Shown here in pieces: positions 15,047 to 34,288 of a stretch of DNA of 64,000 bases; position 1 is the stretch's first letter; every line of letters starts with the position of its first letter. The DNA is from Escherichia coli. Its GTDB lineage: Bacteria > Pseudomonadota > Gammaproteobacteria > Enterobacterales > Enterobacteriaceae. Made by a program: the position numbers and the translations under genes. The stretch lies in NCBI RefSeq assembly GCF_965641715.1, contig NZ_OZ282453.1; one strand, given 5' to 3'. The notes beneath the pieces were generated by a model, which was given only the letters and a program-made list of their open reading frames with translations, searched no databases and was not told the DNA's origin.

Positions 15047-17869
15047 ATGACGGCAGAGTACATCAGGGACTGGCAACAACCGCGCCACGCAGTGGGACGT
15101 GAAGGAACGGGGATCCCCGTTCCTGAATCCGCGCTTTCCTCCTGGCTGGATGCCTACCGGGCAGAGAACGAGCGCCGCCAGGAAATGGCTGATGCGGCGT
15201 TCTCCGCCACGCCGCTGGGCAACCTGATTAATAAAAGCCTGGATGCACAGGAAAAACAGGACAAAACCATCACACTGGCAGGAGACGCCAGAAAACAGGT
15301 ACGCGGTGCGGTGGATGAAGCCATGGCCTCGCTGCGCCTGCTGCCGTCCTATCTGCGCGATCCGCTTATTCGCCACCTCTCCTTCCTGCGCAAAAAACAG
15401 GAAGCCGATCGCCGGAAAGGCAAAAAGAGCTGGCAGGCTGAACGCTACGCGCGCGGAACCCTGCGCAAAATATTCGAACGTCTGGACCGCACCGACCACC
15501 GCTGGCTGACACCGGGTTATCGCTCCCTTGCCGGACGCGAACGCCTGGATGATTTGCTTTACCTGCCGCAGCTCAACAAGCACCAGATACAGACGCTGGC
15601 CACCATGACGGCGGCGATGTTCAGCAGCACCTTCGAAAAACTCTGCGATGGCTTTGGCGCGACTGATGGCGAGCTGACCATGGATGTAACGCTGAAGGCG
15701 TATCAGATGCTGGCCCGCATGGCGTTACACCTGCACGCCATGCCTCCGCATTATGATGCACTGACAACAGACAAAGACCGGAGGAACGAACCGGACACGG
15801 AGCTGCTGCCGGGCGCAATCCTTCGCCTGACCTGTGCGGAATGGTGGAAACGCAAACTGTGGCTGTTACGTTGCGAGTGGCGGGAAGAACAACTCCGCGC
15901 CGCCTGTCTGGTTTCCAGAAAAACATCGCCCTATCTGAGCCAGGACGCGTTAAGCGAGTTTCGCGCACAGCGCGAGAAAACACGCGATTTCCTGAAAAGT
16001 TTCATGCTGGAAAACGAAGACGGGTTCACGATTGATCTCGAGACGGTGTATTACGCGGGAGTAAGTAACCCGGTTCATCGTAAGGCAGAAATGATGGCCA
16101 CCATGAAGGGGCTGGAACTTCTGGCCGAAGCCCGTGGCGACAAAGCGGTGTTTCTGACTGTCACCTGCCCGTCAAAATACCACGCCACAACAGAGAACGG
16201 TCATCCGAATCCCAAATGGAACGGGGCCACCATGCGCGACTCCAGCGATTACCTGGTTAACACGTTTTTTGCGGCGGTCCGCAAGAAACTGAACCGCGAC
16301 GGCCTGCGCTGGTATGGCATCCGCACGGTGGAGCCTCACCATGACGGCACCGTGCACTGGCATATGATGGTCTTTGCTCATCCGGAAGAAATCGACACCA
16401 TTGTGTCCCACACCCGCGATATTGCCATTCAGGAAGATCGTCACGAGCTGGGTGATGATATTACCCCACGCTTTAAGGCGGAGTACGTCGACGGCTCAAA
16501 AGGCACACCGACCAGCTACATCGCCACCTACATCGGGAAAAACCTGGACAGCCGTGCCGTGGATGGCATCGACCCGAAAACGGGCAAGCCACGCGTTGAC
16601 CACGAAACCGGAAAATCAATGGCCGAGAGCGTGGAACGCGCCATCGGCTGGGCGCGCCTTCATCGGGTCCGCCAGTTCCAGTTCTTTGGCATCCCCTCCC
16701 GTCAGGTGTGGCGTGAACTGCGCCGCCTTGCCAGCCAGATGGCTCGCAACCCGGAAGGACCGCAACGGCTGAAGGATGACGCAATGGACGCGGTTCTTGC
16801 TGCCGCTGATGCCGGATGTTTTGCCACCTACATAGAGAAACAGGGCGGCGTACTTGTTCCACGCAAGGACTACCTGATTCGCACCGCCTACGACCTCGCA
16901 GATGAGCTGAACGATTACGGTGAACAGAGCGTACAGATTTACGGGATCTGGTCACCGCTCATCGGGGAGTCTTCCCGCGTATGCACGCATCCGGACAACT
17001 GGAAGCTGGTAAGACGCAAACCGGAAGCGGAAGACAGCGCCCGCGAAAATGGTTTTGACCTTCAGGGCGGCCCTGCCGCCCCTTGGACTCGTGGCAATAA
17101 CTGTCCCCGTGTACAGGAAACAGGCAACAGCGGGACAGAACAGTCGAAAGAACGGCCAGCACCGTGGCCGCAGCTTCCTGACGGCGTTGACGTGAACGAA
17201 TGGATGCGCTCACTGAAACGGCACGAACGCCGGGCGCTGATGCGTTCGCTTCGTGACAAACAGGCAAAAAACAGCAGTGATGAAATGCAGAGCTGGACAC
17301 AGAGCCGCAAACAGCCACGGCCTTTGCCTGATAACCACGAATTACTCGCTAAAGAATGGCGGGAGTCTGCTGAATCTCTCGGCCTGCATATCGGTGAACA
17401 ACAGATGCAGCACCTGTTACGGGGCGGCAGTCTGTACGTTGACGGCAGCATCATTGCACCGCAGGGATTTGAAATTGTACGCAAACCGGATACCCGCCCG
17501 GACAGCCGAATCACGCAGCTCTGGCAGCGCCTGAGCCGTAATCATGGCGTAAGCAGCACGGAGATCCGCCATAACCCGGTCGCCAGCTATCTGGCACAGC
17601 TGGGGGCATCAGACCCTGAAGCCGCCGCACGCCTGGCATCCACACTTCAGCAGGACCAGAACACCATGAAAACACCCGTTACCGTGCTTTCTGACATGCT
17701 GCGCGCCATCCGCGACGCAGAGCACGCACAGAGAATCAGTGAAACCACTGAACGCGCCAGCCGCAAAGCAGACCTGCTGCGGGGTGGCCTGACCAGTGGA
17801 AACAAAAAACAGACAGAAACGGGATTCACAAATCCCATAAATGAGCAAAAAACGTGCCGCGATATATGA
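15047..17869 (+). CDS. A: P2 gpA-type rolling-circle replication initiator (HUH endonuclease) with a long C-terminal extension
   Basis: HUH-like VHWHMMVF and YIATYIGK tyrosine motif; 940 aa versus ~760 aa remembered for P2 A. Confidence 0.85.
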   Translation: MTAEYIRDWQQPRHAVGREGTGIPVPESALSSWLDAYRAENERRQEMADAAFSATPLGNLINKSLDAQEKQDKTITLAGDARKQVRGAVDEAMASLRLLPSYLRDPLIRHLSFLRKKQEADRRKGKKSWQAERYARGTLRKIFERLDRTDHRWLTPGYRSLAGRERLDDLLYLPQLNKHQIQTLATMTAAMFSSTFEKLCDGFGATDGELTMDVTLKAYQMLARMALHLHAMPPHYDALTTDKDRRNEPDTELLPGAILRLTCAEWWKRKLWLLRCEWREEQLRAACLVSRKTSPYLSQDALSEFRAQREKTRDFLKSFMLENEDGFTIDLETVYYAGVSNPVHRKAEMMATMKGLELLAEARGDKAVFLTVTCPSKYHATTENGHPNPKWNGATMRDSSDYLVNTFFAAVRKKLNRDGLRWYGIRTVEPHHDGTVHWHMMVFAHPEEIDTIVSHTRDIAIQEDRHELGDDITPRFKAEYVDGSKGTPTSYIATYIGKNLDSRAVDGIDPKTGKPRVDHETGKSMAESVERAIGWARLHRVRQFQFFGIPSRQVWRELRRLASQMARNPEGPQRLKDDAMDAVLAAADAGCFATYIEKQGGVLVPRKDYLIRTAYDLADELNDYGEQSVQIYGIWSPLIGESSRVCTHPDNWKLVRRKPEAEDSARENGFDLQGGPAAPWTRGNNCPRVQETGNSGTEQSKERPAPWPQLPDGVDVNEWMRSLKRHERRALMRSLRDKQAKNSSDEMQSWTQSRKQPRPLPDNHELLAKEWRESAESLGLHIGEQQMQHLLRGGSLYVDGSIIAPQGFEIVRKPDTRPDSRITQLWQRLSRNHGVSSTEIRHNPVASYLAQLGASDPEAAARLASTLQQDQNTMKTPVTVLSDMLRAIRDAEHAQRISETTERASRKADLLRGGLTSGNKKQTETGFTNPINEQKTCRDI

Positions 17870-17945: not shown

Positions 17946-18905
17946 ATGAAAATTTGTATCGACGACGGCTCCACCAACATCAAGCTGGCATGGACTGAGA
18001 ACGGCGAACGCCGCAACGCCATCAGCCCGAACAGCTTCAAGTCGGAATGGTCTGCGCCGTTCGGTGGCTCGCAGCCCGCGAACTACATGCTTGATGGCGT
18101 GCGCTATGGTTTTGATCCGGTCAGCGATCGCTTTGTCCAGACGACCGACACGCAATACCAGTACAGCGATGTGAATGTCATTGCCATTCATCACGCGCTG
18201 GTCAAATCAGGCATCACGCCACAGGAGGTGGATGTGGTTGTCACCCTGCCATTGAGCGAGTATTTCGACACAAACGCACAGCCGGACATGGCCAACATCA
18301 GCCGCAAAAAAGCGAACGTTATGCGCCCGGTGGAGTACCAGAACGGCGAAACATTCACTATCCGTAACGTACGGGTTATGCCTGAATCCATTCCGGCTGG
18401 CTTTAAAGCACTGGCTGACATGAGTCCGCTTGAATCCCTGCTGATTGTGGATTTGGGCGGAACCACACTGGATGTGGCAAAGGTTCAGGGGCAACTGGCA
18501 GGTATCAGCCAGGTGTTTTGCGATCCACACGTAGGCGTTTCCCTGATGGCCGATGCCGTACTGTCGGTGATGGCCACTAACGGTATGCGTATCAGTCACC
18601 ACATCGCCAATACCATTATCGAACATCGCCATGATGAAGCCTGGTTGCGCCAGCACATCCACAATGACGCGCATTACGCCAGCCTGATGGCGGTTATTCG
18701 TGAAAAGGAAGAAACACTGAAACAACGCGTGATCCGCGCGCTGGCGGTTTTTTCGGGTTACGGGCGGGTGATGGTTGTCGGTGGCGGGGCGGAGATTGTG
18801 GCACCCGCTATCCGCGAAGCCTGCGGAGTTAATGCGACTTTCATCGCGGACGGGGTGCCACAGTTTGCTCTGGTTAATGGGCTGTACGCAATGGACAAGG
18901 AGTAA
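17946..18905 (+). CDS. parM: ParM/StbA actin-like plasmid-segregation ATPase
   Basis: Full-length similarity to remembered R1 ParM (IDDGSTNIKL, ISPNSFK, YSDVNVIAIHHAL, RKKAN, VMPESIPAG, DLGGTTLD, GGGAE). Confidence 0.85.
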   Translation: MKICIDDGSTNIKLAWTENGERRNAISPNSFKSEWSAPFGGSQPANYMLDGVRYGFDPVSDRFVQTTDTQYQYSDVNVIAIHHALVKSGITPQEVDVVVTLPLSEYFDTNAQPDMANISRKKANVMRPVEYQNGETFTIRNVRVMPESIPAGFKALADMSPLESLLIVDLGGTTLDVAKVQGQLAGISQVFCDPHVGVSLMADAVLSVMATNGMRISHHIANTIIEHRHDEAWLRQHIHNDAHYASLMAVIREKEETLKQRVIRALAVFSGYGRVMVVGGGAEIVAPAIREACGVNATFIADGVPQFALVNGLYAMDKE

Positions 18906-18909
18906 ACCA

Positions 18910-19221
18910 ATGACGACTCCAACCAGACGGATAAGTTTCTATCTGAAGCCCGCCGCCGTCAAGAACGAAGGTGAAGCATGCGCCTGGCTGGACAGCCTTA
19001 CACCAGAAGCGCGCAAAAGCGGCCAACGCGTGGCTTTTCTGGCCGGGCTGGCACTTCTGAAAATGAATCCGGCAGAGGCTTACCGACTGGCTGCATGGGC
19101 TGATGATGAAGCGTTATCAGTGACACAAACCAGGACAGAACGCCCCGCGTCACAGCCAGTATCAACCGCACAGATAACCAGTCAGATGGCCGGAAATATC
19201 CGGGCGTTATTTCCCGAATAA
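18910..19221 (+). CDS. parR: ParR-like centromere-binding adaptor
   Basis: ATG 18910 follows aaggag, 4 nt after the parM stop; ISFYLKP...LDSLTPEARKSGQRVAFLAGLAL and C-terminal IRALFPE resemble R1 ParR. Confidence 0.7.
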   Translation: MTTPTRRISFYLKPAAVKNEGEACAWLDSLTPEARKSGQRVAFLAGLALLKMNPAEAYRLAAWADDEALSVTQTRTERPASQPVSTAQITSQMAGNIRALFPE

Positions 19222-19284
19222 CACAACATCAGGGCGCATCCGCCCTGATGACTTTAACCCGGGAACATAAACAAGGGGGACACA

Positions 19285-19620
19285 ATGCAACGCATTGACA
19301 GAGAAAAAGCGCAGCGACTGATTGAGCGGATGGAAGCGCTGGCGAAAGAAGAAAATGTCAACATCCAAAAAATAGCTGAATGTGGCCAGATAGTTCTTCG
19401 TCGTGAAAAAGACCTCAAACAACTGATGTCTGGCGAAACCAGCAAAACATGGACTTCAGGTGAGGAGACGATTTATTGCAGCTTCTGCAATAAATCCCAG
19501 TACGAAGTCACAAAGGTGATTGCCGGACCGTCTGTTTACATCTGCAATGAGTGCGTTGATTTGTGCAATGAAGTTATCAGGAGAGAAGTGACAGACCATG
19601 AAGAAAAAACGCATGAATGA
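19285..19620 (+). CDS. Orphan ClpX N-terminal zinc-binding-domain (zf-C4_ClpX) protein with no AAA+ module
   Basis: Residues ~60-101, [39 protein letters not shown], versus E. coli Clp[40 protein letters not shown]. Confidence 0.85.
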
Positions 19621-19786
19621 CGAATTTGACGGCTTTTAATTTTATCGGGGCGCACTGTCGCCCTGCATGGAGAAAAACAATAAAAAAGATGAATAACTGC
19701 TCATGTCAGACGCGCTGCGGGCAAGTCTGGCACCCTGCCCTGTCTCCGCAAAGGCTGTTGTCTTAACACGACAGAGTATGCCAGCA

Positions 19787-20194
19787 TTAAATATAATCTT
19801 CTTCGTAGTCGCTGATTAATTCATTGCCATAATCAGACAGCAATTTCAAAGCAAAGGTAACTTCCTCAAGGGTAGCTATCCCCATTGCTGAAAACACCGT
19901 TAATTTAACCAGCAGCAGGGAGTTTGAAAGTTCGGAAGAGTTCATCATTAAAAATATTGATGCAGCCTGAAAAGCTGTGCGTTTATTCCCATCATGAAAG
20001 GCATGAGCCTTGGCTATACCAATCAAATACATAGCAGCCAGAGCATGAATATCATCAACCCCTTCATAGTAGTGTAGTGTCCTGACGCGATTTAAAGCAC
20101 CTTCAAGTAGCCCGTCATTGGCATTTCCGCTCTGGGGTAAAGTTTCAGCATGGATACGTTCTACTTGTTCTTTTGACAAAAACACTATGTCCAT
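19787..20194 (-). CDS. doc: Doc (death-on-curing) Fic-fold toxin
   Basis: Doc signature HAFHDGNKRTAF; 135 aa; start overlaps the antitoxin stop (TGATG). Confidence 0.85.
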   Translation of the reverse strand: MDIVFLSKEQVERIHAETLPQSGNANDGLLEGALNRVRTLHYYEGVDDIHALAAMYLIGIAKAHAFHDGNKRTAFQAASIFLMMNSSELSNSLLLVKLTVFSAMGIATLEEVTFALKLLSDYGNELISDYEEDYI

Positions 20195-20550
20195 CAGTTA
20201 TCCTCAAGCTTTTTAATGATATCCGCATGTTTTTCTCTTGTACGCTTCATTGCATCTTCAAAAGACAATCCTTTTTTTCTCTGTGCGACAAGAGCTGGAT
20301 GACGTTTTTCCAGATCTCTCACTGCATTTATTAAGAGTGGTTGCTTCATTTTGTTTATTTGATCCCGCAGTTTTTTGGTTTTGCCAAGGACAGCCCGTAT
20401 TTCAGGACTAAGATCAGAACCAGCAAGAACAACATCCTTCCCTCCCTGCGCCGTGATAACGACACTGCCACCGGAAGAAAGGTAATCCAGAATTTCACTC
20501 AGGTTCTCACGAAATTCATCATCAGTTACAGTTTTCATATTCATTTCCAT
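20194..20550 (-). CDS. Phd/YefM-type antitoxin (extended C-terminus)
   Basis: Upstream of and coupled to doc; N-terminus MKTVTDDEFRENLSEILDYLSSGGSVVIT is Phd/YefM-like; the true start may be 20538. Confidence 0.7.
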   Translation of the reverse strand: MEMNMKTVTDDEFRENLSEILDYLSSGGSVVITAQGGKDVVLAGSDLSPEIRAVLGKTKKLRDQINKMKQPLLINAVRDLEKRHPALVAQRKKGLSFEDAMKRTREKHADIIKKLEDN

Positions 20551-20624
20551 TATGCACGCCCATAACGTAAGTATAACGGCTTGTTGGGCAGTAATAACAC
20601 CGCCATATTTTCATTTTATACACC

Positions 20625-20650
20625 GCACAATAGTGCACAAATTTGCACAA
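20625..20650 (-). promoter_or_regulatory. 3 x TTGTGC (GCACAA on the plus strand) at exact 10-bp phasing next to TATAAAAT: candidate phd-doc promoter/operator
   Basis: gcacaa at 20625, 20635 and 20645; minus strand reads TTGTGCaaatTTGTGCactaTTGTGCggtgTATAAAAT. Confidence 0.45.
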
Positions 20651-20746
20651 TTTTTTTGAACAACTTTTTACCCTTCCGGCCCGCGTGGCGACTGGATCCG
20701 TCAAGGATCCGTGCGTGCACAAAAAAACGCGTTTTTTCTGCGCGCA

Positions 20747-20765
20747 GGTGACGGGGGAACAGCCC
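20747..20765. other. Candidate cos cohesive-end sequence
   Basis: GGTGACGGGGGAACAGCCC versus remembered P2 cos GGCGAGGCGGGGAAAGCAC (about 12/19), ~310 bp beyond the end of Q as in P2. Confidence 0.3.
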
Positions 20766-21074
20766 GCGTTTCAGGGGGTAAATAGCATTCCCTGAACGAT
20801 GTCGCAGCGACACAACAGAATGGCTGTATTTCTCACACTGAGCGTGAAAAAGGCGTGAGGGCTTTTGATTTGATGGGGTGACAGATAAGGCCGTCAAAAT
20901 CGCACTGAGGCGGCAAGAACATGCAGTCAACGCGGTGGGATTGCGTAAGAGCCTGACCGTCGATGATGGCGATAAGCTGGAAGACGTCGTGAAATTATCT
21001 GATTGATACAGGAGCTGGAGAGTCGGGGCATAAATTTTTTATGCCCCGGCGAAGCAGCAGACAAGCGAAGCGCG

Positions 21075-22121
21075 TCAGGATGTGGGCTGGGTGTCCAGCA
21101 GTGCGTAAGGGTTAAAGCGGATCACCTCTTCGCCAAGCCAGTCATTGATATGCTTCATGGCCTCCATGACGGGCATCAGCTCGTTAATTGCGTAAACCCG
21201 CGCTGCCTTCTCCACATCACCAAACGCACTTTTTTCGCCCGGCATCGCCCCCATCAGTTGCGGCGGAACGCGGTGCGCAGCCAGCACATCATCACGGGAT
21301 GCCGCCTTAACATTCATGAACTCATCCTTTGCGGTGATCTGCTGGAACGGCAAAATTTGCACACCTTCTTTGCCCCCGTTGGGCGCGTGAATGAGCACGT
21401 TTTTAAATGCACCACCACCACGCGCACCCTGTAGCGTTTCCTTCAGGGAGTCCATGCTTTCGCGGTTTACCTGCGCTGCACCGATGTAGATGATGCACCC
21501 GGCGTGGGATCCATTGTCGTAGTACAGTTTTCTGAACATGTCCGCCGAATGAGACAGGCTGGCCGAGAGTAATGCGCCAAGATATTCCGGCATGCCGTAA
21601 ATTTCCTGGTTAATGTCCGGATTCATCAGGTGGCACACTTTGCCAGGGCGAAACTGAAACGCGTCCTTGCCATCCTGCACATACCACCATGATTCAAGAT
21701 CGCTTCCGCGTCGCATGTATTTCGCCAGTGCGTGCCGTAATTTAAGTGGTTCGCCGAGCATATTGCTCCGAAGCTCAAGGAATGCGTTACCGAACACAAA
21801 CCAGTCCAGCGCCAGCGCCGAGAAATCCTGCCGGGAAAGCAGCGGGTGCGGGATGTAGCAACCGAGCAATACATTGCGCTTAAAGTAAAGCGCAGACTGA
21901 TGCCAGGACGTTTGCCGGGCGGCTCTTGCCAGACCGTACCAGTCCACCGGGGTTTCATACCACCGCCCGTTATCAGCACAGTACATATTGTCCAGCAGGT
22001 CATGCCCGGTCAGGCGGTAAGGACCATCAAATGTGAATGCACTGAGCGACGATTCTTTCCTGAGCGCATCAGCGAGATCAATGCGTGAACTCATGCGCAC
22101 TTTTTTATTTTTTCTGCTCAT
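21075..22121 (-). CDS. Q: Portal protein (P2 gpQ-like)
   Basis: 348-aa ORF upstream-coupled to the terminase gene; P2 Q-P orientation. Confidence 0.85.
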   Translation of the reverse strand: MSRKNKKVRMSSRIDLADALRKESSLSAFTFDGPYRLTGHDLLDNMYCADNGRWYETPVDWYGLARAARQTSWHQSALYFKRNVLLGCYIPHPLLSRQDFSALALDWFVFGNAFLELRSNMLGEPLKLRHALAKYMRRGSDLESWWYVQDGKDAFQFRPGKVCHLMNPDINQEIYGMPEYLGALLSASLSHSADMFRKLYYDNGSHAGCIIYIGAAQVNRESMDSLKETLQGARGGGAFKNVLIHAPNGGKEGVQILPFQQITAKDEFMNVKAASRDDVLAAHRVPPQLMGAMPGEKSAFGDVEKAARVYAINELMPVMEAMKHINDWLGEEVIRFNPYALLDTQPTS

Positions 22122-31993: not shown

Positions 31994-34288
31994 ATGAGTA
32001 CCACAACACGAAAATTTAAAACCGTTATCACCGATACGGGTGCAAAAAAATTAGCTCAGGCAGCCGCGCCAGATGGTAAGCCTGTCCGCCTGACTCATAT
32101 GGCCGTGGGCGACGGTGGCGGCACGTTGCCCACACCAGACAGTAAGCAGACCCGTCTGGTGCATGAGGTGTGGCGACACACTGTTAATCGCGTCATCCTG
32201 GACGCAACACATCAGAACCGCATTATTGCGGAGCTGGTTATTCCTCCAGAAACGGGCGGATTCTGGATCCGGGAAATTGGTGTGTTTGATGAGCACGGCG
32301 ATTTAATCGCAGTAGGCAATACTGCCGAAAGTTACAAGCCAACCGTTGCCGAAGGGTCAGGACGTGCACAAACATTTCGCACCATTCTGACCGTATCCAG
32401 CACTGCCACCGTGGCGCTTACCGTGGATAACACCATGGTAATGGCCACAGTGGATTACGTGGATGACAAACTGAAAGAGCATGAACACTCACGACGTCAC
32501 CCGGACGCCTCGCTGACCGCAAAAGGCTTTGTTCAACTTAGCAGCGCCACTAACAGCACGTCTGAAACGCTTGCGGCAACGCCAAAGGCTGTTAAGGCGG
32601 CATATGACCTGGCTAATGGCAAATACACCGCACAGGACGCTACCACTGCGCGAAAAGGGATAGTTCAGCTCAGTAGCGCCACCAACAGCACGTCTGAAAC
32701 GCAGGCTGCAACGCCGAAAGCAGTAAAGGCCGCGTATGACCTTGCTAACGCAAAATATACCGCTCAGGACGCCACGACGGCACAAAAAGGGATAGTCCAG
32801 CTCAGTAGTGCCACCAACAGCACGTCTGAAACACTGGCCGCGACATCGAAAGCGGTTAAGGCGGTAATGGATGAAACGAACAAGAAAGCGCCCTTAAACA
32901 GTCCTGCGCTGACCGGAACGCCAACAACGCCAACTGCGCGACAGGGAACGAATAATACCCAAATCGCAAGCACGGCTTTCGTTATGGCTGCGATTGCCGC
33001 CCTTGTAGATTCGTCACCTGACGCACTGAATACGCTGAACGAGTTAGCGGCGGCGCTGGGAAACGACCCGAATTTTGCGACCACCATGACTAACGCGCTT
33101 GCGGGTAAGCAACCGAAAGATGCCACCCTGACGGCGCTGGCCGGGCTTGCTACTGCGGCAGACAGGTTTCCGTATTTTACGGGGAATGATGTCGCCAGCC
33201 TGGCAACCCTGACAAAAGTCGGGCGGGATATTCTTGCGAAATCGACCGTTGCTGCCGTTATCGAATACCTCGGTTTACAGGAAACGGTAAACAGGGCTGG
33301 TAACGCCGTGCAAAAAAATGGCGATACTTTGTCCGGTGGGCTTACTTTTGAAAATGACTCAATCCTTGCCTGGATTCGAAATACTGACTGGGCGAAGATT
33401 GGATTTAAAAATGATGCCGATGGTGACACTGATTCATACATGTGGTTTGAGACAGGCGACAACGGCAATGAATATTTCAAATGGAGAAGCAAACAAAGCA
33501 CCACAACAAAAGACCTGATGAATCTTAAATGGGATGCTTTGTATGTTCTTGTTAAAGCTCTTTTCAGCAGTGAAGTAAAAATATCGACAGTCAATGCACT
33601 GAGGATATTTAATTCATCTTTTGGTGCCATTTTTCGCCGTTCTGAAGAATGCCTGCATATCATCCCTACACGAGAGAATGAGGGGGAAAATGGTAATATA
33701 GGGCCACTACGTCCCTTTACGCTTAATCTCAGAACTGGCCGCATAACTATGGGGCATGGTCTGGATGTTACAGGAGATATAACAACTAACGCCTGGGTGT
33801 ATGCAAACAGGTTTGCTATTAATAGTGGCTCAACCTCATGGATTGATATGCGAAACCAGAATGTCATTTTTGGTAGAAACGCAGTATCAACAAGTTCTGC
33901 GCAGGCTTTGTTAAGACAAGACCATGCAGAACGCAAATTTTTTGTCGGTGGACTTGGTAACTACCAGTTTGGTTTTTACATGATTAATAACTCAAGGACA
34001 GCCAATGGCACCGATGGTCAGGCGTACATGGACAATAACGGTAACTGGCTTTGTGGCTCGCAAGTTATTCCTGGCAACTATGGCAATTTTGATTCCAGAT
34101 ATGTGAGAGATGTTCGCCTGGGTACGCGAGTTGTTCAATTGATGGCGCGTGGTGGTCGTTATGAAAAAGCCGGACACGCAATTACCGGATTAAGAATCAT
34201 TGGTGAAGTAGATGGCGATGATGAAGCCATCTTCAGGCCAATACAAAAATACATCAATGGCACATGGTATAACGTCGCACAGGTGTAA
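31994..34288 (+). CDS. H: Tail fibre protein (P2 gpH-like N-terminus fused to a Mu S / P1 S-type invertible C-terminus)
   Basis: 764 aa; 3 x 44-aa fibre repeats; crossover site at 33258-33283; C-terminal ...FRPIQKYINGTWYNVAQV. Confidence 0.9.
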   Translation: MSTTTRKFKTVITDTGAKKLAQAAAPDGKPVRLTHMAVGDGGGTLPTPDSKQTRLVHEVWRHTVNRVILDATHQNRIIAELVIPPETGGFWIREIGVFDEHGDLIAVGNTAESYKPTVAEGSGRAQTFRTILTVSSTATVALTVDNTMVMATVDYVDDKLKEHEHSRRHPDASLTAKGFVQLSSATNSTSETLAATPKAVKAAYDLANGKYTAQDATTARKGIVQLSSATNSTSETQAATPKAVKAAYDLANAKYTAQDATTAQKGIVQLSSATNSTSETLAATSKAVKAVMDETNKKAPLNSPALTGTPTTPTARQGTNNTQIASTAFVMAAIAALVDSSPDALNTLNELAAALGNDPNFATTMTNALAGKQPKDATLTALAGLATAADRFPYFTGNDVASLATLTKVGRDILAKSTVAAVIEYLGLQETVNRAGNAVQKNGDTLSGGLTFENDSILAWIRNTDWAKIGFKNDADGDTDSYMWFETGDNGNEYFKWRSKQSTTTKDLMNLKWDALYVLVKALFSSEVKISTVNALRIFNSSFGAIFRRSEECLHIIPTRENEGENGNIGPLRPFTLNLRTGRITMGHGLDVTGDITTNAWVYANRFAINSGSTSWIDMRNQNVIFGRNAVSTSSAQALLRQDHAERKFFVGGLGNYQFGFYMINNSRTANGTDGQAYMDNNGNWLCGSQVIPGNYGNFDSRYVRDVRLGTRVVQLMARGGRYEKAGHAITGLRIIGEVDGDDEAIFRPIQKYINGTWYNVAQV
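32519..32890 (+). repeat. Three tandem 132-bp (44-aa) tail-fibre repeats
   Basis: KG(F/I)VQLSSATNSTSET-AAT-KAVKA-YDLAN-KYTAQDATTA repeats starting at 32522, 32654 and 32786. Confidence 0.85.
33258..33283 (+). repeat. Left recombination site (gix/cix-like)
   Basis: ttatcgaatacctcggtttacaggaa; close to the remembered gix sequence TTATCCAAAACCTCGGTTTACAGGAA. Confidence 0.8.

What the first reader, a model, noticed from the sequence alone, without database searches (positions are those of the whole stretch)
19787..20650. phd-doc type II toxin-antitoxin pair with a 3 x TTGTGC helically phased operator-like array
- The 135-aa ORF carries the Doc variant of the Fic motif (HAFHDGNKRTAF).
- Its ATG overlaps the stop of the upstream 118-aa ORF (TGATG).
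- The upstream ORF has a Phd/YefM-like N-terminus, but at 118 aa it is much longer than P1 Phd (73 aa).
- Upstream on the minus strand, TTGTGC occurs three times at exactly 10-bp spacing (plus-strand gcacaa at 20625, 20635, 20645). The array abuts a TATAAAAT -10-like element.

These features are consistent with autoregulation by the antitoxin-toxin complex. Doc-type modules are plasmid and P1 addiction systems. In a P2 hot spot the pair could equally act as abortive-infection defence.
Basis: partly seen in the sequence, partly recalled or inferred. Interest (0 to 1): 0.5.

Follow-up and report, generated by a model that had tools for sequence, protein, structure and literature searches.

The report
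Phd-Doc toxin pair beside phage cos
The two genes are a genuine but already catalogued Phd-Doc toxin-antitoxin pair carried as cargo in a P2-like prophage, and the three TTGTGC repeats next to them are not its operator but a conserved part of the phage's DNA-packaging (cos) region.

Summary
Every sequence observation checks out: a 135-aa Doc ORF with HAFHDGNKR, a TGATG overlap with an upstream Phd-like ORF, and TTGTGC x3 at exact 10-bp spacing followed by TATAAAAT.

The toxin-antitoxin reading is supported. Doc passes the Pfam and NCBIfam cut-offs and matches P1 Doc. The antitoxin, probably 114 aa rather than 118, has a predicted Phd/YefM N-domain, a variable helical linker and a near-invariant C-terminal 24 residues. 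RefSeq already names both proteins. Rousset et al. 2022 already list this exact cassette in the P2 gpA-gpQ hotspot, untested.

The operator reading is not supported. The array belongs to the phage backbone:
- About 1,100 E. coli genomes carry it, but only 19 carry the TA.
- 88 IMG/VR contigs keep it in front of about 44 different cargo junctions.
- It is colinear with a [C/A]ATGCA x3 array about 105 nt from cos in P2, 186, P4 and many P4-like satellites.
- An inverted copy of the TA elsewhere in the hotspot has no array.

The TA's own conserved promoter-like element lies downstream: TTATTA-N16-TATACT followed by TTACGTTAT.

In all 15 genomic contexts examined, this TA lineage sits in the P2-like hotspot. 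It is an ordinary member of a known kind. The cos-repeat observation is a modest by-product.

The parts
19787..20194 (-). Doc-family toxin gene, 135 aa (RefSeq WP_001561009.1), with motif H64-A-F-H-D-G-N-K-R72
   Evidence: Pfam Fic/DOC PF02661: 44.2 bits against a cut-off of 24. TIGR01550 DOC_P1: 53.6 bits against 38.65. P1 Doc structure 3k33_A: E=6e-13 over residues 23-119. PHROG 577 Doc-like toxin: 2.9e-26. RefSeq annotation seen.
20194..20538 (-). Phd/YefM-family antitoxin gene, 114 aa (RefSeq WP_001561011.1). The stop overlaps the Doc ATG by one base.
   Evidence: PF02604: 29.2 bits, E=7.8e-7, just under the gathering score of 29.8, covering N-terminal residues 5-42 only. AlphaFold model with pLDDT 72: beta-alpha-alpha-beta-beta N-domain followed by long helices. 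Top Foldseek PDB hits are P1 Phd and YefM; 4zlx gives TM 0.81 and rmsd 1.4 A over 42 columns. Alignment A2 shows an invariant MKTVTD start and a near-invariant C-terminal LSFE[DE]AMKRTREKHAxIIK[KR]LEDN.
20562..20604 (-). Candidate promoter and operator of the TA itself. It contains an imperfect dyad GGCGGTGTTATTACTGCC (20604-20587), a -35-like TTATTA (20597-20592), a 16-nt spacer, a -10-like TATACT (20575-20570), then TTACGTTAT (20570-20562). GTTAT recurs three times at 21- and 11-nt spacing.
   Evidence: TTATTA-N16/17-TATA[CAT]T is conserved upstream of the antitoxin in all cos-adjacent homologous loci while the spacer varies. The inverted TA copies L147/L148 keep TATA(C)TTACG(G)TTAY at -40 to -24 and have no TTGTGC array. 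Function is inferred. The generic promoter scan did not flag it because the -35 matches only 3 of 6 positions.
20613..20620 (-).
   Evidence: Present in the window and in L143 only. The other TA loci have TAAAAC, TGAAAC, TCAAAC or CAAAAC at this position, and most lack the final T of a -10 hexamer. With the second TTGTGC as -35, TAAAAT sits 16 nt downstream. It is a possible minor promoter but is not conserved.
20625..20650 (-). TTGTGC(A) x3 array at 10-bp spacing. It is the distal repeat block of the phage cos right arm and the last conserved backbone sequence before the variable hotspot.
   Evidence: It is unique in the window. About 1,105 of 5,426 E. coli genomes match the backbone from 20612/20625 onward, but only 19 also carry the TA. 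Homology with P88, 569R5, Shae_phiSM and two other prophages ends immediately after the third repeat. 88 backbone-type IMG/VR loci show about 44 different junctions. All 17 phage-related loci found through an upstream anchor that does not include the array have it. It aligns colinearly with the P2, P4 and 186 ATGCA x3 arrays.
20651..20657 (-). A7 tract immediately upstream of the array, conserved with it
   Evidence: On the plus strand, GTGCACAAATTTGCAC followed by the T-run was flagged as a weak terminator-like site.
20716..20722 (-). Cos-proximal fourth copy, TTTTTTTGTGCA. It is the counterpart of TTTTAATGCA in P2, P4 and 186.
   Evidence: Colinear alignment; coordinates verified.
20747..20765 (+). 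Predicted cohesive-end 19-mer GGTGACGGGGGAACAGCCC (cos). It matches P2 cosL GGCGAGGCGGGGAAAGCAC at 13 of 19 positions and has the same orientation relative to the portal gene.
   Evidence: P2 cosL annotation and sequence. Identity count. Colinear flanks including CTGCGCGC. This is inferred by homology; the ends were not determined experimentally.
21075..22121 (-). Portal protein gene (gpQ homologue), which bounds the cos side of the hotspot
   Evidence: RefSeq annotation.
15047..17869 (+). Replication endonuclease gene (gpA homologue), which bounds the other side of the hotspot
   Evidence: ORF list. RefSeq annotates a replication endonuclease at the corresponding position of L001 with a slightly earlier start.
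17946..19620 (+). Other hotspot cargo shared with phage P88: ParM (17946-18905), a StbB/Plasmid_stab_B protein (18910-19221) and a ClpX-type zinc-finger protein (19285-19620)
   Evidence: Pfam hits. RefSeq and P88 annotation. The same arrangement is listed in Rousset 2022 Table S5A.

Best explanation
Window 19787-20538 (-) is an intact two-gene Phd/YefM-Doc type II toxin-antitoxin operon. It is low-GC cargo in the cos-proximal gpA-gpQ hotspot of an integrated P88-like (P2-family) prophage.

**How the TA most likely works (inferred from P1 Phd-Doc)**
- Doc is a Fic-fold kinase that phosphorylates EF-Tu and arrests translation.
- The antitoxin's conserved C-terminal helices mask Doc.
- Its Phd-fold N-domain dimer represses the operon's own promoter. 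I place that promoter at 20562-20604 (TTATTA-N16-TATACT plus TTACGTTAT).
- The antitoxin is probably labile to proteases. Loss or shut-off of the operon would then free Doc.

**What the TTGTGC x3 array is**
- It is not part of the TA module.
- It is the distal repeat block of the phage's cos right arm, about 100 bp from the predicted cohesive-end site.
- It is the TTGTGCA-type counterpart of the [C/A]ATGCA x3 block of P2, 186 and P4.
- Its most likely function is recognition or bending of cos DNA by the packaging machinery.
- Cargo is swapped right up to its edge, which is why it abuts the TA.

**Shown:** the identities, the conservation patterns and the positions.
**Inferred:** kinase activity, neutralisation, the promoter and operator, and terminase binding.
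For: **TA identity**
- Domain and structure matches for both proteins.
- One-base overlap of the two genes.
- A co-conserved 135-aa Fic gene follows the antitoxin gene in every full-length homologous locus.
- GC content is 40.6% against 52-54% in the flanks.

**Known status**
- RefSeq names both proteins.

**The array belongs to the backbone**
- 1,105 genomes match the backbone; 19 also carry the TA.
- Homology breaks immediately after the third repeat.
- 88 IMG/VR loci lie next to portal genes of 68-100% identity, show about 44 junctions, and only one carries this TA.
- An anchor search that is blind to the array found it in all 17 phage-related loci.

**The array is a cos element**
- A gap-free colinear alignment runs from the cos end to the repeats for the window lineage, P2, P4 and 186.
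- 53 P2/186-like phages and P4-like satellites have ATGCA x3 about 105 nt from the cos 19-mer.
- It is the only such cluster in the whole P4 genome.
- In P4 and 186 no gene reads away from the array: psu and the t95b terminator converge on it.
- Longer cos flanks raise P2 cosmid transduction more than 1,000-fold (PMC9594776).

**The TA has its own promoter**
- TTATTA-N16-TATACT is conserved in all TA loci.
- It is partly retained in the inverted, array-less L147/L148.
Against: - No experiment supports toxicity, neutralisation, promoter use or terminase binding.
- In every cos-adjacent TA locus the array sits at a fixed -111 from the antitoxin ATG. Co-option of the array by the TA is therefore not excluded.
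- TGTGCAC loosely resembles the P1 Phd operator TGTGTACACA.
- In P2 the third repeat overlaps the inferred -35 of the old-tin promoter. The block can therefore double as promoter DNA.
- The antitoxin's Pfam and TIGRFAM scores fall just below the curated cut-offs.
- The cos position is inferred from 13 of 19 identity with P2. The linear ends of GenBank record LR595891 fall elsewhere, at about window 20670.
- I could not read Ziermann & Calendar 1990, so I do not know whether the distal repeats have already been described.
Confidence: 0.8

Rival explanations
1. The three helically phased TTGTGC repeats are the operator where the antitoxin or antitoxin-toxin complex binds, repressing a promoter whose -10 is TATAAAAT.
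For: - The repeats lie directly upstream of the operon.
- The second repeat sits 16 nt from TAAAAT.
- The distance to the antitoxin ATG is fixed at -111 in all cos-adjacent TA loci.
- The middle copy contains the palindrome GTGCAC, reminiscent of the P1 Phd operator TGTGTACACA.
Against: - The array is conserved with identical sequence in more than 1,000 E. coli genomes and 87 IMG/VR contigs that lack the TA.
- It occurs as an ATGCA variant in P2, 186 and P4 satellites, which have no Phd-Doc there.
- L147/L148 carry a 54%-identical antitoxin with no TTGTGC upstream.
- TATAAAAT is not conserved among TA loci.
- Phd/YefM dimers bind inverted repeats (P1 operator; structures 4zm0/4zm2). These repeats are direct.
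Confidence: 0.07
2. The array is mainly promoter DNA, a -35 or upstream element. It gives constitutive leftward transcription of whichever hotspot gene is inserted next to cos, as with the P2 old-tin promoter. The phd-doc operon would be driven from it.
For: - The P2 record annotates old-tin mRNA starts at 33424 and 33426. By my reading, that places a -35 (TTGAAT) on the third ATGCA repeat.
- In the window and in L143 a good TAAAAT lies 16 nt from the second repeat.
- Several cargos read away from the array.
Against: - Many cargos read toward the array, or place a terminator hairpin directly against it. Examples are P88 ATTGAAATAAACGCCCTGGAGGAGGGCGTTTT, and the situation in 186 and P4.
- The array is kept in P4-like satellites downstream of the converging psu gene.
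- TTGTGC matches TTGACA at only 3 of 6 positions, and the consensus scan found no minus-strand promoter.
- The TA loci conserve a different promoter-like element further downstream.
Confidence: 0.2
3. The array is a rightward (plus-strand) intrinsic terminator, GTGCACAAATTTGCAC followed by a T-run. It would insulate cos and the late genes from transcription coming out of the hotspot.
For: - The consensus scan flagged 20633-20648 (+) as terminator-like, with the conserved T7 run after it.
- The T-run (A7 on the minus strand) is conserved with the array.
Against: - The stem has only 5 pairs, 3 of them G-C. The scan found as many such sites in shuffled sequence: 2 found against 1.8 expected.
- Plus-strand cargos bring their own strong terminators just before the array.
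- The P2, P4 and 186 versions have different spacing (10 then 12-14) and are not followed by a comparable T-run in the alignment.
- Three phased copies plus a fourth proximal copy are not needed for a hairpin.
Confidence: 0.08
4. The two ORFs are an inactive remnant, and the module has no current function.
For: The module sits in a prophage. No expression data are available.
Against: - Both ORFs are full length.
- The catalytic motif is intact.
- Across the 15 loci, 13 show a full-length pair, with an intact 135-aa Doc gene directly shown in 12. Doc is 81-89% identical and the antitoxin 57-67% in four of them.
- The 19 E. coli copies are 98.6-100% identical.
Confidence: 0.05

Closest known systems
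Phd-Doc addiction module of bacteriophage P1
   Same: - Same gene order, antitoxin then toxin, with overlapping stop and start codons.
- The toxin is homologous to P1 Doc (E=6e-13) and has the same H-x-F-x-D-[AG]-N-K-R motif.
- The antitoxin N-domain is predicted to adopt the Phd fold.
- It is carried by a temperate phage that also encodes a partition system: ParM/StbB here, ParAB in P1 (the latter from general knowledge).
   Different: - The antitoxin is 114 aa against 73 aa. It has a 45-residue helical linker and a C-terminal motif, LSFEDAMKRTREKHADIIKKLEDN, with no detectable similarity to the P1 Phd C-terminus.
- The upstream region lacks the P1 operator palindromes TGTGTACACA and GAGTACAC.
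- The host element is an integrated P2-family prophage, not a plasmid prophage (1,252 of 1,253 places are chromosomal).
- There is no nucleotide similarity to any phage record over the TA.
Cargo systems of the P2 gpA-gpQ (tin/old, 'TO') hotspot (Rousset et al. 2022; Vassallo et al. 2022)
   Same: - Same locus, directly beside cos, between the replication endonuclease and the portal.
- The exact cassette appears in Rousset Table S5A.
- Like P2 old, it reads leftward, away from cos.
   Different: - Anti-phage activity has never been tested for this cassette.
- No PADLOC model of a named defence system matches. Doc gives only weak hits to the candidates PDC-S23, PDC-M59B and PDC-S05, and the antitoxin gives none.
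- A stabilisation (addiction) role is equally plausible.
cos region of P2, 186 and P4 (55-bp P2/P4 core, Ziermann & Calendar 1990, as cited in PMC9122126 and PMC9594776)
   Same: The layout is the same: the 19-mer, a GC-rich block, a proximal T-run followed by RTGCA, a GC hairpin, and about 105 nt out, three phased RTGCA repeats.
   Different: - The repeat unit is TTGTGCA with 10+10 spacing, instead of [C/A]ATGCA with 10 then 12-14.
- The cohesive-end 19-mer matches P2 at only 13 of 19 positions.
- Some lineages (L017, L068, L069, L141) combine a P2-type CCCGCCTCGCC end with TTGTGCA repeats.
- Whether the distal repeats have been described before could not be checked.
YefM-YoeB and Axe-Txe operators (TGTACA-core palindromes; from general knowledge)
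   Same: TGTGCA differs from TGTACA at one position, which probably prompted the operator idea.
   Different: Those operators are inverted repeats specific to their own TA loci. Here the repeats are direct and independent of the cargo.

Membership tests
Doc toxin (Fic-fold kinase; PF02661 / TIGR01550) | Profile match above the curated cut-off | tested here: met
   PF02661: 44.2 bits against 24. TIGR01550: 53.6 bits against 38.65. PHROG 577: 2.9e-26.
Doc toxin (Fic-fold kinase; PF02661 / TIGR01550) | Doc-type active-site motif H-x-F-x-[DN]-[AG]-N-K-R, rather than the Fic motif H-x-F-x-[DE]-G-N-G-R | tested here: met
   HAFHDGNKR at residues 64-72 aligns with HIFNDANKR of P1 Doc.
Doc toxin (Fic-fold kinase; PF02661 / TIGR01550) | Phosphorylates EF-Tu and arrests translation; toxic when expressed alone | not testable with these tools
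   Needs expression and a kinase assay.
Phd/YefM antitoxin (PF02604 / TIGR01552) | Profile match above the curated cut-off | tested here: inconclusive
   PF02604: 29.2 bits against 29.8, E=7.8e-7, residues 5-42 only. TIGR01552: 16.6 bits against 20.8. phrog_375: 2.4e-4. phmmer against PDB Phd: E about 1.
Phd/YefM antitoxin (PF02604 / TIGR01552) | Phd/YefM N-terminal fold (beta-alpha-alpha-beta-beta dimerisation and DNA-binding domain) | tested here: met
   The AlphaFold model (pLDDT 72, and 75-84 over residues 1-50) has P1 Phd and YefM chains as its best PDB matches. 4zlx_A gives TM 0.81 and rmsd 1.4 A.
Phd/YefM antitoxin (PF02604 / TIGR01552) | Encoded immediately upstream of its toxin, translationally coupled to it and co-inherited with it | tested here: met
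   One-base overlap. A 135-aa Fic gene follows the antitoxin in the 12 full-length homologous loci whose genes or Doc match were listed.
Phd/YefM antitoxin (PF02604 / TIGR01552) | C-terminal segment that binds and neutralises the toxin | tested here: inconclusive
   A near-invariant C-terminal 24 residues fit this role. The same module also occurs fused to other N-terminal regions. There is no similarity to the P1 Phd C-terminus, and no complex model could be made.
   Present in about 1,086 E. coli genomes and 87 IMG/VR contigs without the TA.
   L147/L148 carry the inverted TA after ParM/StbB. There is no TTGTGC in the 135 nt upstream of the antitoxin.
   Needs EMSA or footprinting and reporter fusions.
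Peduoviridae / P4 cos region | Lies between the portal gene and the variable hotspot, with a cohesive-end 19-mer related to GGCGAGGCGGGGAAAGCAC | tested here: met
   13 of 19 positions identical at 20747-20765, in the same orientation relative to gpQ.
Peduoviridae / P4 cos region | Colinear right-arm architecture shared by helpers and satellites: a proximal RTGCA, a hairpin, then a distal RTGCA x3 about 105 nt out | tested here: met
   Gap-free alignment of 15 sequences including P2, P4 and 186. 53 further P2-like and P4-like loci.
Peduoviridae / P4 cos region | The repeats are needed for terminase recognition or packaging | not testable with these tools
   Only indirect support: longer cos flanks raise P2 cosmid transduction more than 1,000-fold (PMC9594776).
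P2-hotspot anti-phage defence system | Located in the gpA-gpQ hotspot | tested here: met
   All 15 contexts of the TA family examined lie in this hotspot.
P2-hotspot anti-phage defence system | Matches a known defence-system model, or protects against phage | tested here: inconclusive
   PADLOC gives only weak Doc hits to candidate families, the best being PDC-S23 at 7.4e-6, and nothing for the antitoxin. Protection was never assayed.

The most novel reading that the evidence does not exclude
There are two linked possibilities that the evidence does not exclude.
1. The phased RTGCA x3 block about 105 nt from cos is a so-far unappreciated packaging-recognition element, analogous to cosB. Its sequence type (ATGCA in P2, 186 and P4; TTGTGCA in P88/Novemvirus-type phages) could help set which helpers and satellites can package each other's DNA.
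2. This Phd-Doc lineage has been fixed at a constant distance from that block in several genera. It may have become coupled to it: occupancy of the cos arm during packaging, or by a superinfecting relative's terminase, could shut off antitoxin synthesis and release Doc. That would make the TA a sensor of P2-type packaging activity.
Probability: 0.12. Interest if true: 0.6.

Novelty: new member of a known kind. Interest (0 to 1): 0.27.

Why it matters
The TA itself adds little. It is an annotated and catalogued Phd-Doc pair that has not been characterised. Its only unusual traits are a long antitoxin and an apparently exclusive residence in the P2-family hotspot across Enterobacterales.

The useful outcomes are mostly corrective:
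- A striking phased repeat next to a TA promoter turned out to be backbone DNA. Cargo-adjacent motifs at phage hotspots therefore need to be checked against cargo-free relatives before being called operators.
- Hotspot cargo in these phages is exchanged right up to the last base of the cos arm. This defines the recombination boundary precisely.
- The conserved RTGCA x3 block, shared by helpers and P4-like satellites and present in two sequence types, is a concrete and testable candidate for packaging specificity. It is relevant to helper-satellite compatibility and to the design of P2/P4 cosmids.

Tried and rejected
- **P88_4B11 record ends as cos.** I first took the linear ends of GenBank LR595891, at about window 20670, as the cos site. 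I rejected this in favour of the P2-homologous 19-mer at 20747-20765 once the colinear alignment with P2, P4 and 186 was available.
- **ParMR centromere.** I considered the array as a parC-like centromere. I rejected this because prophages without ParM, such as APEC E12053 and several TA loci, keep it.
- **Ogr/Delta late-promoter site.** I considered the TGT-N12-ACA motif. The spacing does not fit, judged by inspection only.
- **Promoter and terminator scan.** The generic scan found no minus-strand promoter and only a weak plus-strand terminator-like hairpin, no more than shuffled sequence gives.
- **Rfam.** No hit on 19200-21100 at E<=1.
- **Plasmid origin.** Only two marginal partial hits, so no plasmid source for the cassette. 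No phage record matches the TA DNA.
- **Literature on P2 cos anatomy.** Searches gave nothing specific. The Christie & Calendar review and Odegrip 2006 are not held, and I had no access to Ziermann & Calendar 1990.
- **Literature on Doc as phage defence.** No search hit linked Phd-Doc to phage defence (titles and abstracts only), and Vassallo 2022 has no mention of Doc.
- **Shared motifs with the inverted TA.** A k-mer search between the inverted TA's upstream region and the others gave only the short TATA(C)TTACG(G)TTAY resemblance. No operator can be named with confidence.
Full report
**1. What is in the sequence**

On the minus strand, a 135-aa ORF (19787-20194) carries HAFHDGNKR. An upstream ORF ends in a TGA that shares its A with the Doc ATG. 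Further upstream, TTGTGC occurs three times at exactly 10-bp spacing (20650-20625), followed by GGTG and TATAAAAT (20620-20613). This array is unique in the 64-kb window. At up to two mismatches, 0.01 are expected by chance.

**2. The genes**

- **Toxin.** It passes the curated thresholds of Pfam Fic/DOC (44.2 bits against 24) and TIGR01550 DOC_P1 (53.6 bits against 38.65). It aligns with P1 Doc structures at E=6e-13, including the catalytic HxFxD[AG]NKR stretch. It also matches PHROG 577, 'Doc-like toxin'.
- **Antitoxin, sequence evidence.** This is weaker. PF02604 gives 29.2 bits, just under its gathering score of 29.8, and covers residues 5-42 only. TIGR01552 is below its cut-off. phmmer against the PDB reaches Phd only at E about 1.
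- **Antitoxin, fold evidence.** An AlphaFold model built on 16 homologues has mean pLDDT 72, higher in the N-domain. It shows a beta-alpha-alpha-beta-beta domain followed by long helices. Its best PDB matches are P1 Phd and YefM; 4zlx gives TM 0.81 and rmsd 1.4 A over 42 columns.
- **Antitoxin length.** All homologues are about 111-119 aa and begin MKTVTD. They have a variable middle and a nearly invariant C-terminal LSFE[DE]AMKRTREKHAxIIK[KR]LEDN.
- **Wider family.** A profile search of 1.84 billion representatives found 61 clusters. Many share the same plan: a Phd-like N-domain, a linker of very variable length (94-214 aa in total) and the same C-terminal motif. A few carry only the C-terminal module behind another N-terminus.
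- **Conclusion.** The extra length relative to P1 Phd is a linker plus a different toxin-binding tail, not an added domain of new function. Neutralisation and kinase activity are inferred, not shown.

**3. Context**

- The window holds an integrated P2-family prophage of the P88/Xuanwuvirus type. The gene order is replication endonuclease, ParM, a StbB-like protein, a ClpX-zinc-finger protein, [Doc, antitoxin], a non-coding region, portal, terminase.
- This is the gpA-gpQ 'tin/old' hotspot next to cos, described by Rousset et al. 2022 and Vassallo et al. 2022.
- RefSeq already names both proteins as death-on-curing toxin and Phd/YefM antitoxin.
[quoted passage not shown] The cassette was not among the systems they tested.
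- The cassette has 40.6% G+C against 52-54% around it. It has no nucleotide relatives in the phage collection and only two short partial hits among plasmids.

**4. The array belongs to the phage, not to the TA**

- **E. coli genomes.** A megablast of 19700-20900 against 5,426 complete genomes found 1,105 with a match. Only 19 cover the TA. In the rows listed, the match begins at window 20608-20625, at or just before the array.
- **Alignment with other phages.** In an alignment with P88, vB_EcoM-569R5, Citrobacter phage Shae_phiSM and two other prophages, identity is near-perfect through TTGTGCAAATTTGTGCACTATTGTGC. It collapses immediately afterwards. Those elements carry other cargo: a hypothetical gene, a membrane protein, a KAP NTPase, an HTH protein.
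- **IMG/VR pattern scan.** A scan for the pattern returned 120 contigs. Of these, 88 have the backbone form, and in nearly all of them a portal, gpA or ParM homologue was detected nearby (portal 68-100% identical where present). They show about 44 different junction sequences, many of which start with a terminator hairpin. Only one contig (L094) has this TA.
- **Control for ascertainment.** I also searched with an upstream anchor that does not include the repeats. All 17 phage-related loci it returned have the full array. Enterobacter phage phiT5282H, found by BLAST, has it with one substitution.

**5. What the array is**

- **Position relative to cos.** By homology with P2 cosL (GGCGAGGCGGGGAAAGCAC), the window's cohesive-end 19-mer is GGTGACGGGGGAACAGCCC at 20747-20765. 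It matches at 13 of 19 positions and has the same orientation relative to the portal gene. The array starts 97 bp from it.
- **Same layout in P2, P4 and 186.** Reading away from cos, each shows a GC-rich block, TTTTAATGCA, a GC hairpin and, about 105 nt out, [C/A]ATGCA three times at 10 and then 12-14 bp.
- **Colinear alignment.** These three sequences, the window and eleven other lineages align without gaps. TTTTTTTGTGCA (20722-20716) falls on TTTTAATGCA, and TTGTGCA x3 falls on ATGCA x3.
- **Breadth.** A scan for the ATGCA array returned 53 P2/186-like phages and P4-like satellites. In nearly all of them the array lies about 105 nt from the cos end. In the complete P4 genome it is the only cluster of three ATGCA within 36 nt.
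- **Why this points to packaging.** Satellites share only the packaging signal with their helpers (PMC9122126).
- **Not a cargo promoter there.** In P4 and 186 nothing is transcribed away from the repeats. psu and the t95b terminator converge on them.
- **Indirect experimental support.** Longer cos flanks raise P2 cosmid transduction more than 1,000-fold (PMC9594776).
- **Inference.** The most economical reading is that the block is part of the functional cos arm. It is probably a site for the terminase or for DNA bending; it is phased and preceded by an A7 tract.
- **A possible second role.** In P2 the third repeat overlaps what I infer to be the -35 of the old-tin promoter, from the annotated starts at 33424 and 33426. 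The block can therefore also serve as promoter DNA, but that cannot be its conserved role.

**6. The TA's own control region**

- **Context of the family.** The antitoxin family is small, with 19 clusters at 90% identity. In all 15 genomic contexts I examined it lies in the gpA-gpQ hotspot of a P2-like prophage. The hosts are Escherichia, Serratia, Edwardsiella, Enterobacter, Klebsiella, Citrobacter and Symbiopectobacterium.
- **Relative conservation.** In four of these loci Doc is 81-89% identical to the window's protein, and the antitoxin 57-67%.
- **Position and orientation.** In most loci the operon is the first cargo after the array and reads away from cos, with the array at a fixed -111 from the ATG. 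This is consistent with inheritance of one junction.
- **What is conserved between array and start codon.** The conserved element is GTGTTATTA (-35-like TTATTA, 20597-20592), then 16 nt of variable sequence, then TATACT (20575-20570) and TTACGTTAT. TATAAAAT occurs only in the window and its closest relative; elsewhere the position reads TAAAAC, TGAAAC, TCAAAC or CAAAAC.
- **A natural control.** In L147/L148 the TA is inverted. It sits after ParM/StbB and reads toward the portal. Its upstream region has no TTGTGC but keeps TATA-TTACGGTTAC at -40 to -24.
- **Placement.** I therefore place the operon's promoter and likely operator at 20562-20604. This is an inference. The -35 is weak and the generic scan did not call it.
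- **P1 comparison.** The P1 operator (TGTGTACACA and GAGTACAC) resembles TGTGCAC only superficially. It is an inverted repeat, not a direct one.

**7. Function**

- **Mechanism.** The best-supported mechanism is that of P1 Phd-Doc. Doc is a kinase that blocks EF-Tu. It is held inactive by a labile antitoxin that also represses the operon. These properties come from established knowledge of the P1 system and were not tested here.
- **Possible roles.** Whether the module stabilises the prophage, serves as abortive-infection defence, or both is open.
  - *For defence:* the hotspot location favours it.
  - *For maintenance:* the frequent company of a ParM/StbB partition cassette, and the P1 precedent, favour it.
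  - *PADLOC:* the database gives only weak Doc hits to candidate families.

**8. Verdict**

The TA and its hotspot location are correct. The operator reading is wrong.
- The TA is an annotated, catalogued but uncharacterised member of a known kind.
- The repeats are a conserved cos-arm element. Their two sequence types across P2-like phages and P4-like satellites are a modest, testable by-product of this check.

Noticed in passing
window 17946-19221 (+): A ParM (StbA_N and ParM C-terminal domain) and StbB-like partition cassette sits in a chromosomally integrated P2-like prophage. Rousset et al. note that about a quarter of P2-like phages carry such a system and speculate about plasmid maintenance. 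Of the 1,253 matching places in E. coli, 1,252 are chromosomal. No centromere-like iterons were looked for.
   Followed up: partly
window 19285-19620 (+): A 111-aa protein consists of an N-terminal region of unknown function plus a ClpX-type C4 zinc finger (PF06689, 3.1e-17; phrog_6797, function unknown). It converges on Doc. P1 Phd is a ClpXP substrate (general knowledge), so a free ClpX N-domain next to a Phd-Doc pair is suggestive. However, the gene also occurs without the TA (P88), and most TA loci lack it (only L143 has it).
   Followed up: partly
L021 8451-8750 and L075 2340-2639 (IMG/VR contigs): A second, different Doc-like gene, 42-43% identical to the window's Doc, lies within about 100 nt of the same TTGTGC array but reads toward it. 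Doc-type cargo therefore appears to have entered this hotspot more than once.
   Followed up: no
L141 4875-5515 (Serratia, CP166420.1): A HicA-HicB pair lies immediately beside the homologous Phd-Doc pair in the same hotspot, so two type II TA modules are stacked.
   Followed up: no
window 20670-20705 (-), and the equivalent region in P4, 186 and IMG/VR loci: Between the cos-proximal block and the distal repeats, most lineages keep a GC-rich hairpin whose arms differ in sequence but stay complementary. Examples are CCGCGCCGGGAATGGCGCGG in P4 and CCGCGCCAGCTCTGGCG in 186; the window has GGATCCTTGACGGATCC plus CGCCACGCGGGCCGG. This looks like covariation, so it may be a structural or protein-binding element of cos.
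   Followed up: no
L002 1-3 and L008 3501 (LR595891.1, Xuanwuvirus P88_4B11): The linear ends of this GenBank record fall between the hairpin and the A-tract, equivalent to window position 20670 or so. They do not fall at the 19-mer homologous to P2 cosL. The record was probably not linearised at the true cohesive ends.
   Followed up: partly
L017, L068, L069, L141: Some lineages combine a P2-type cohesive-end sequence (CCCGCCTCGCC) with TTGTGCA-type repeats. The end sequence and the repeat type therefore vary independently.
   Followed up: no
L155 and L157: In Klebsiella sp. WOUb02 the third repeat is degenerate (TTTTGC). In Candidatus Symbiopectobacterium only two copies remain, at 9-bp spacing. 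This may be decay of cos in prophages that no longer package.
   Followed up: no
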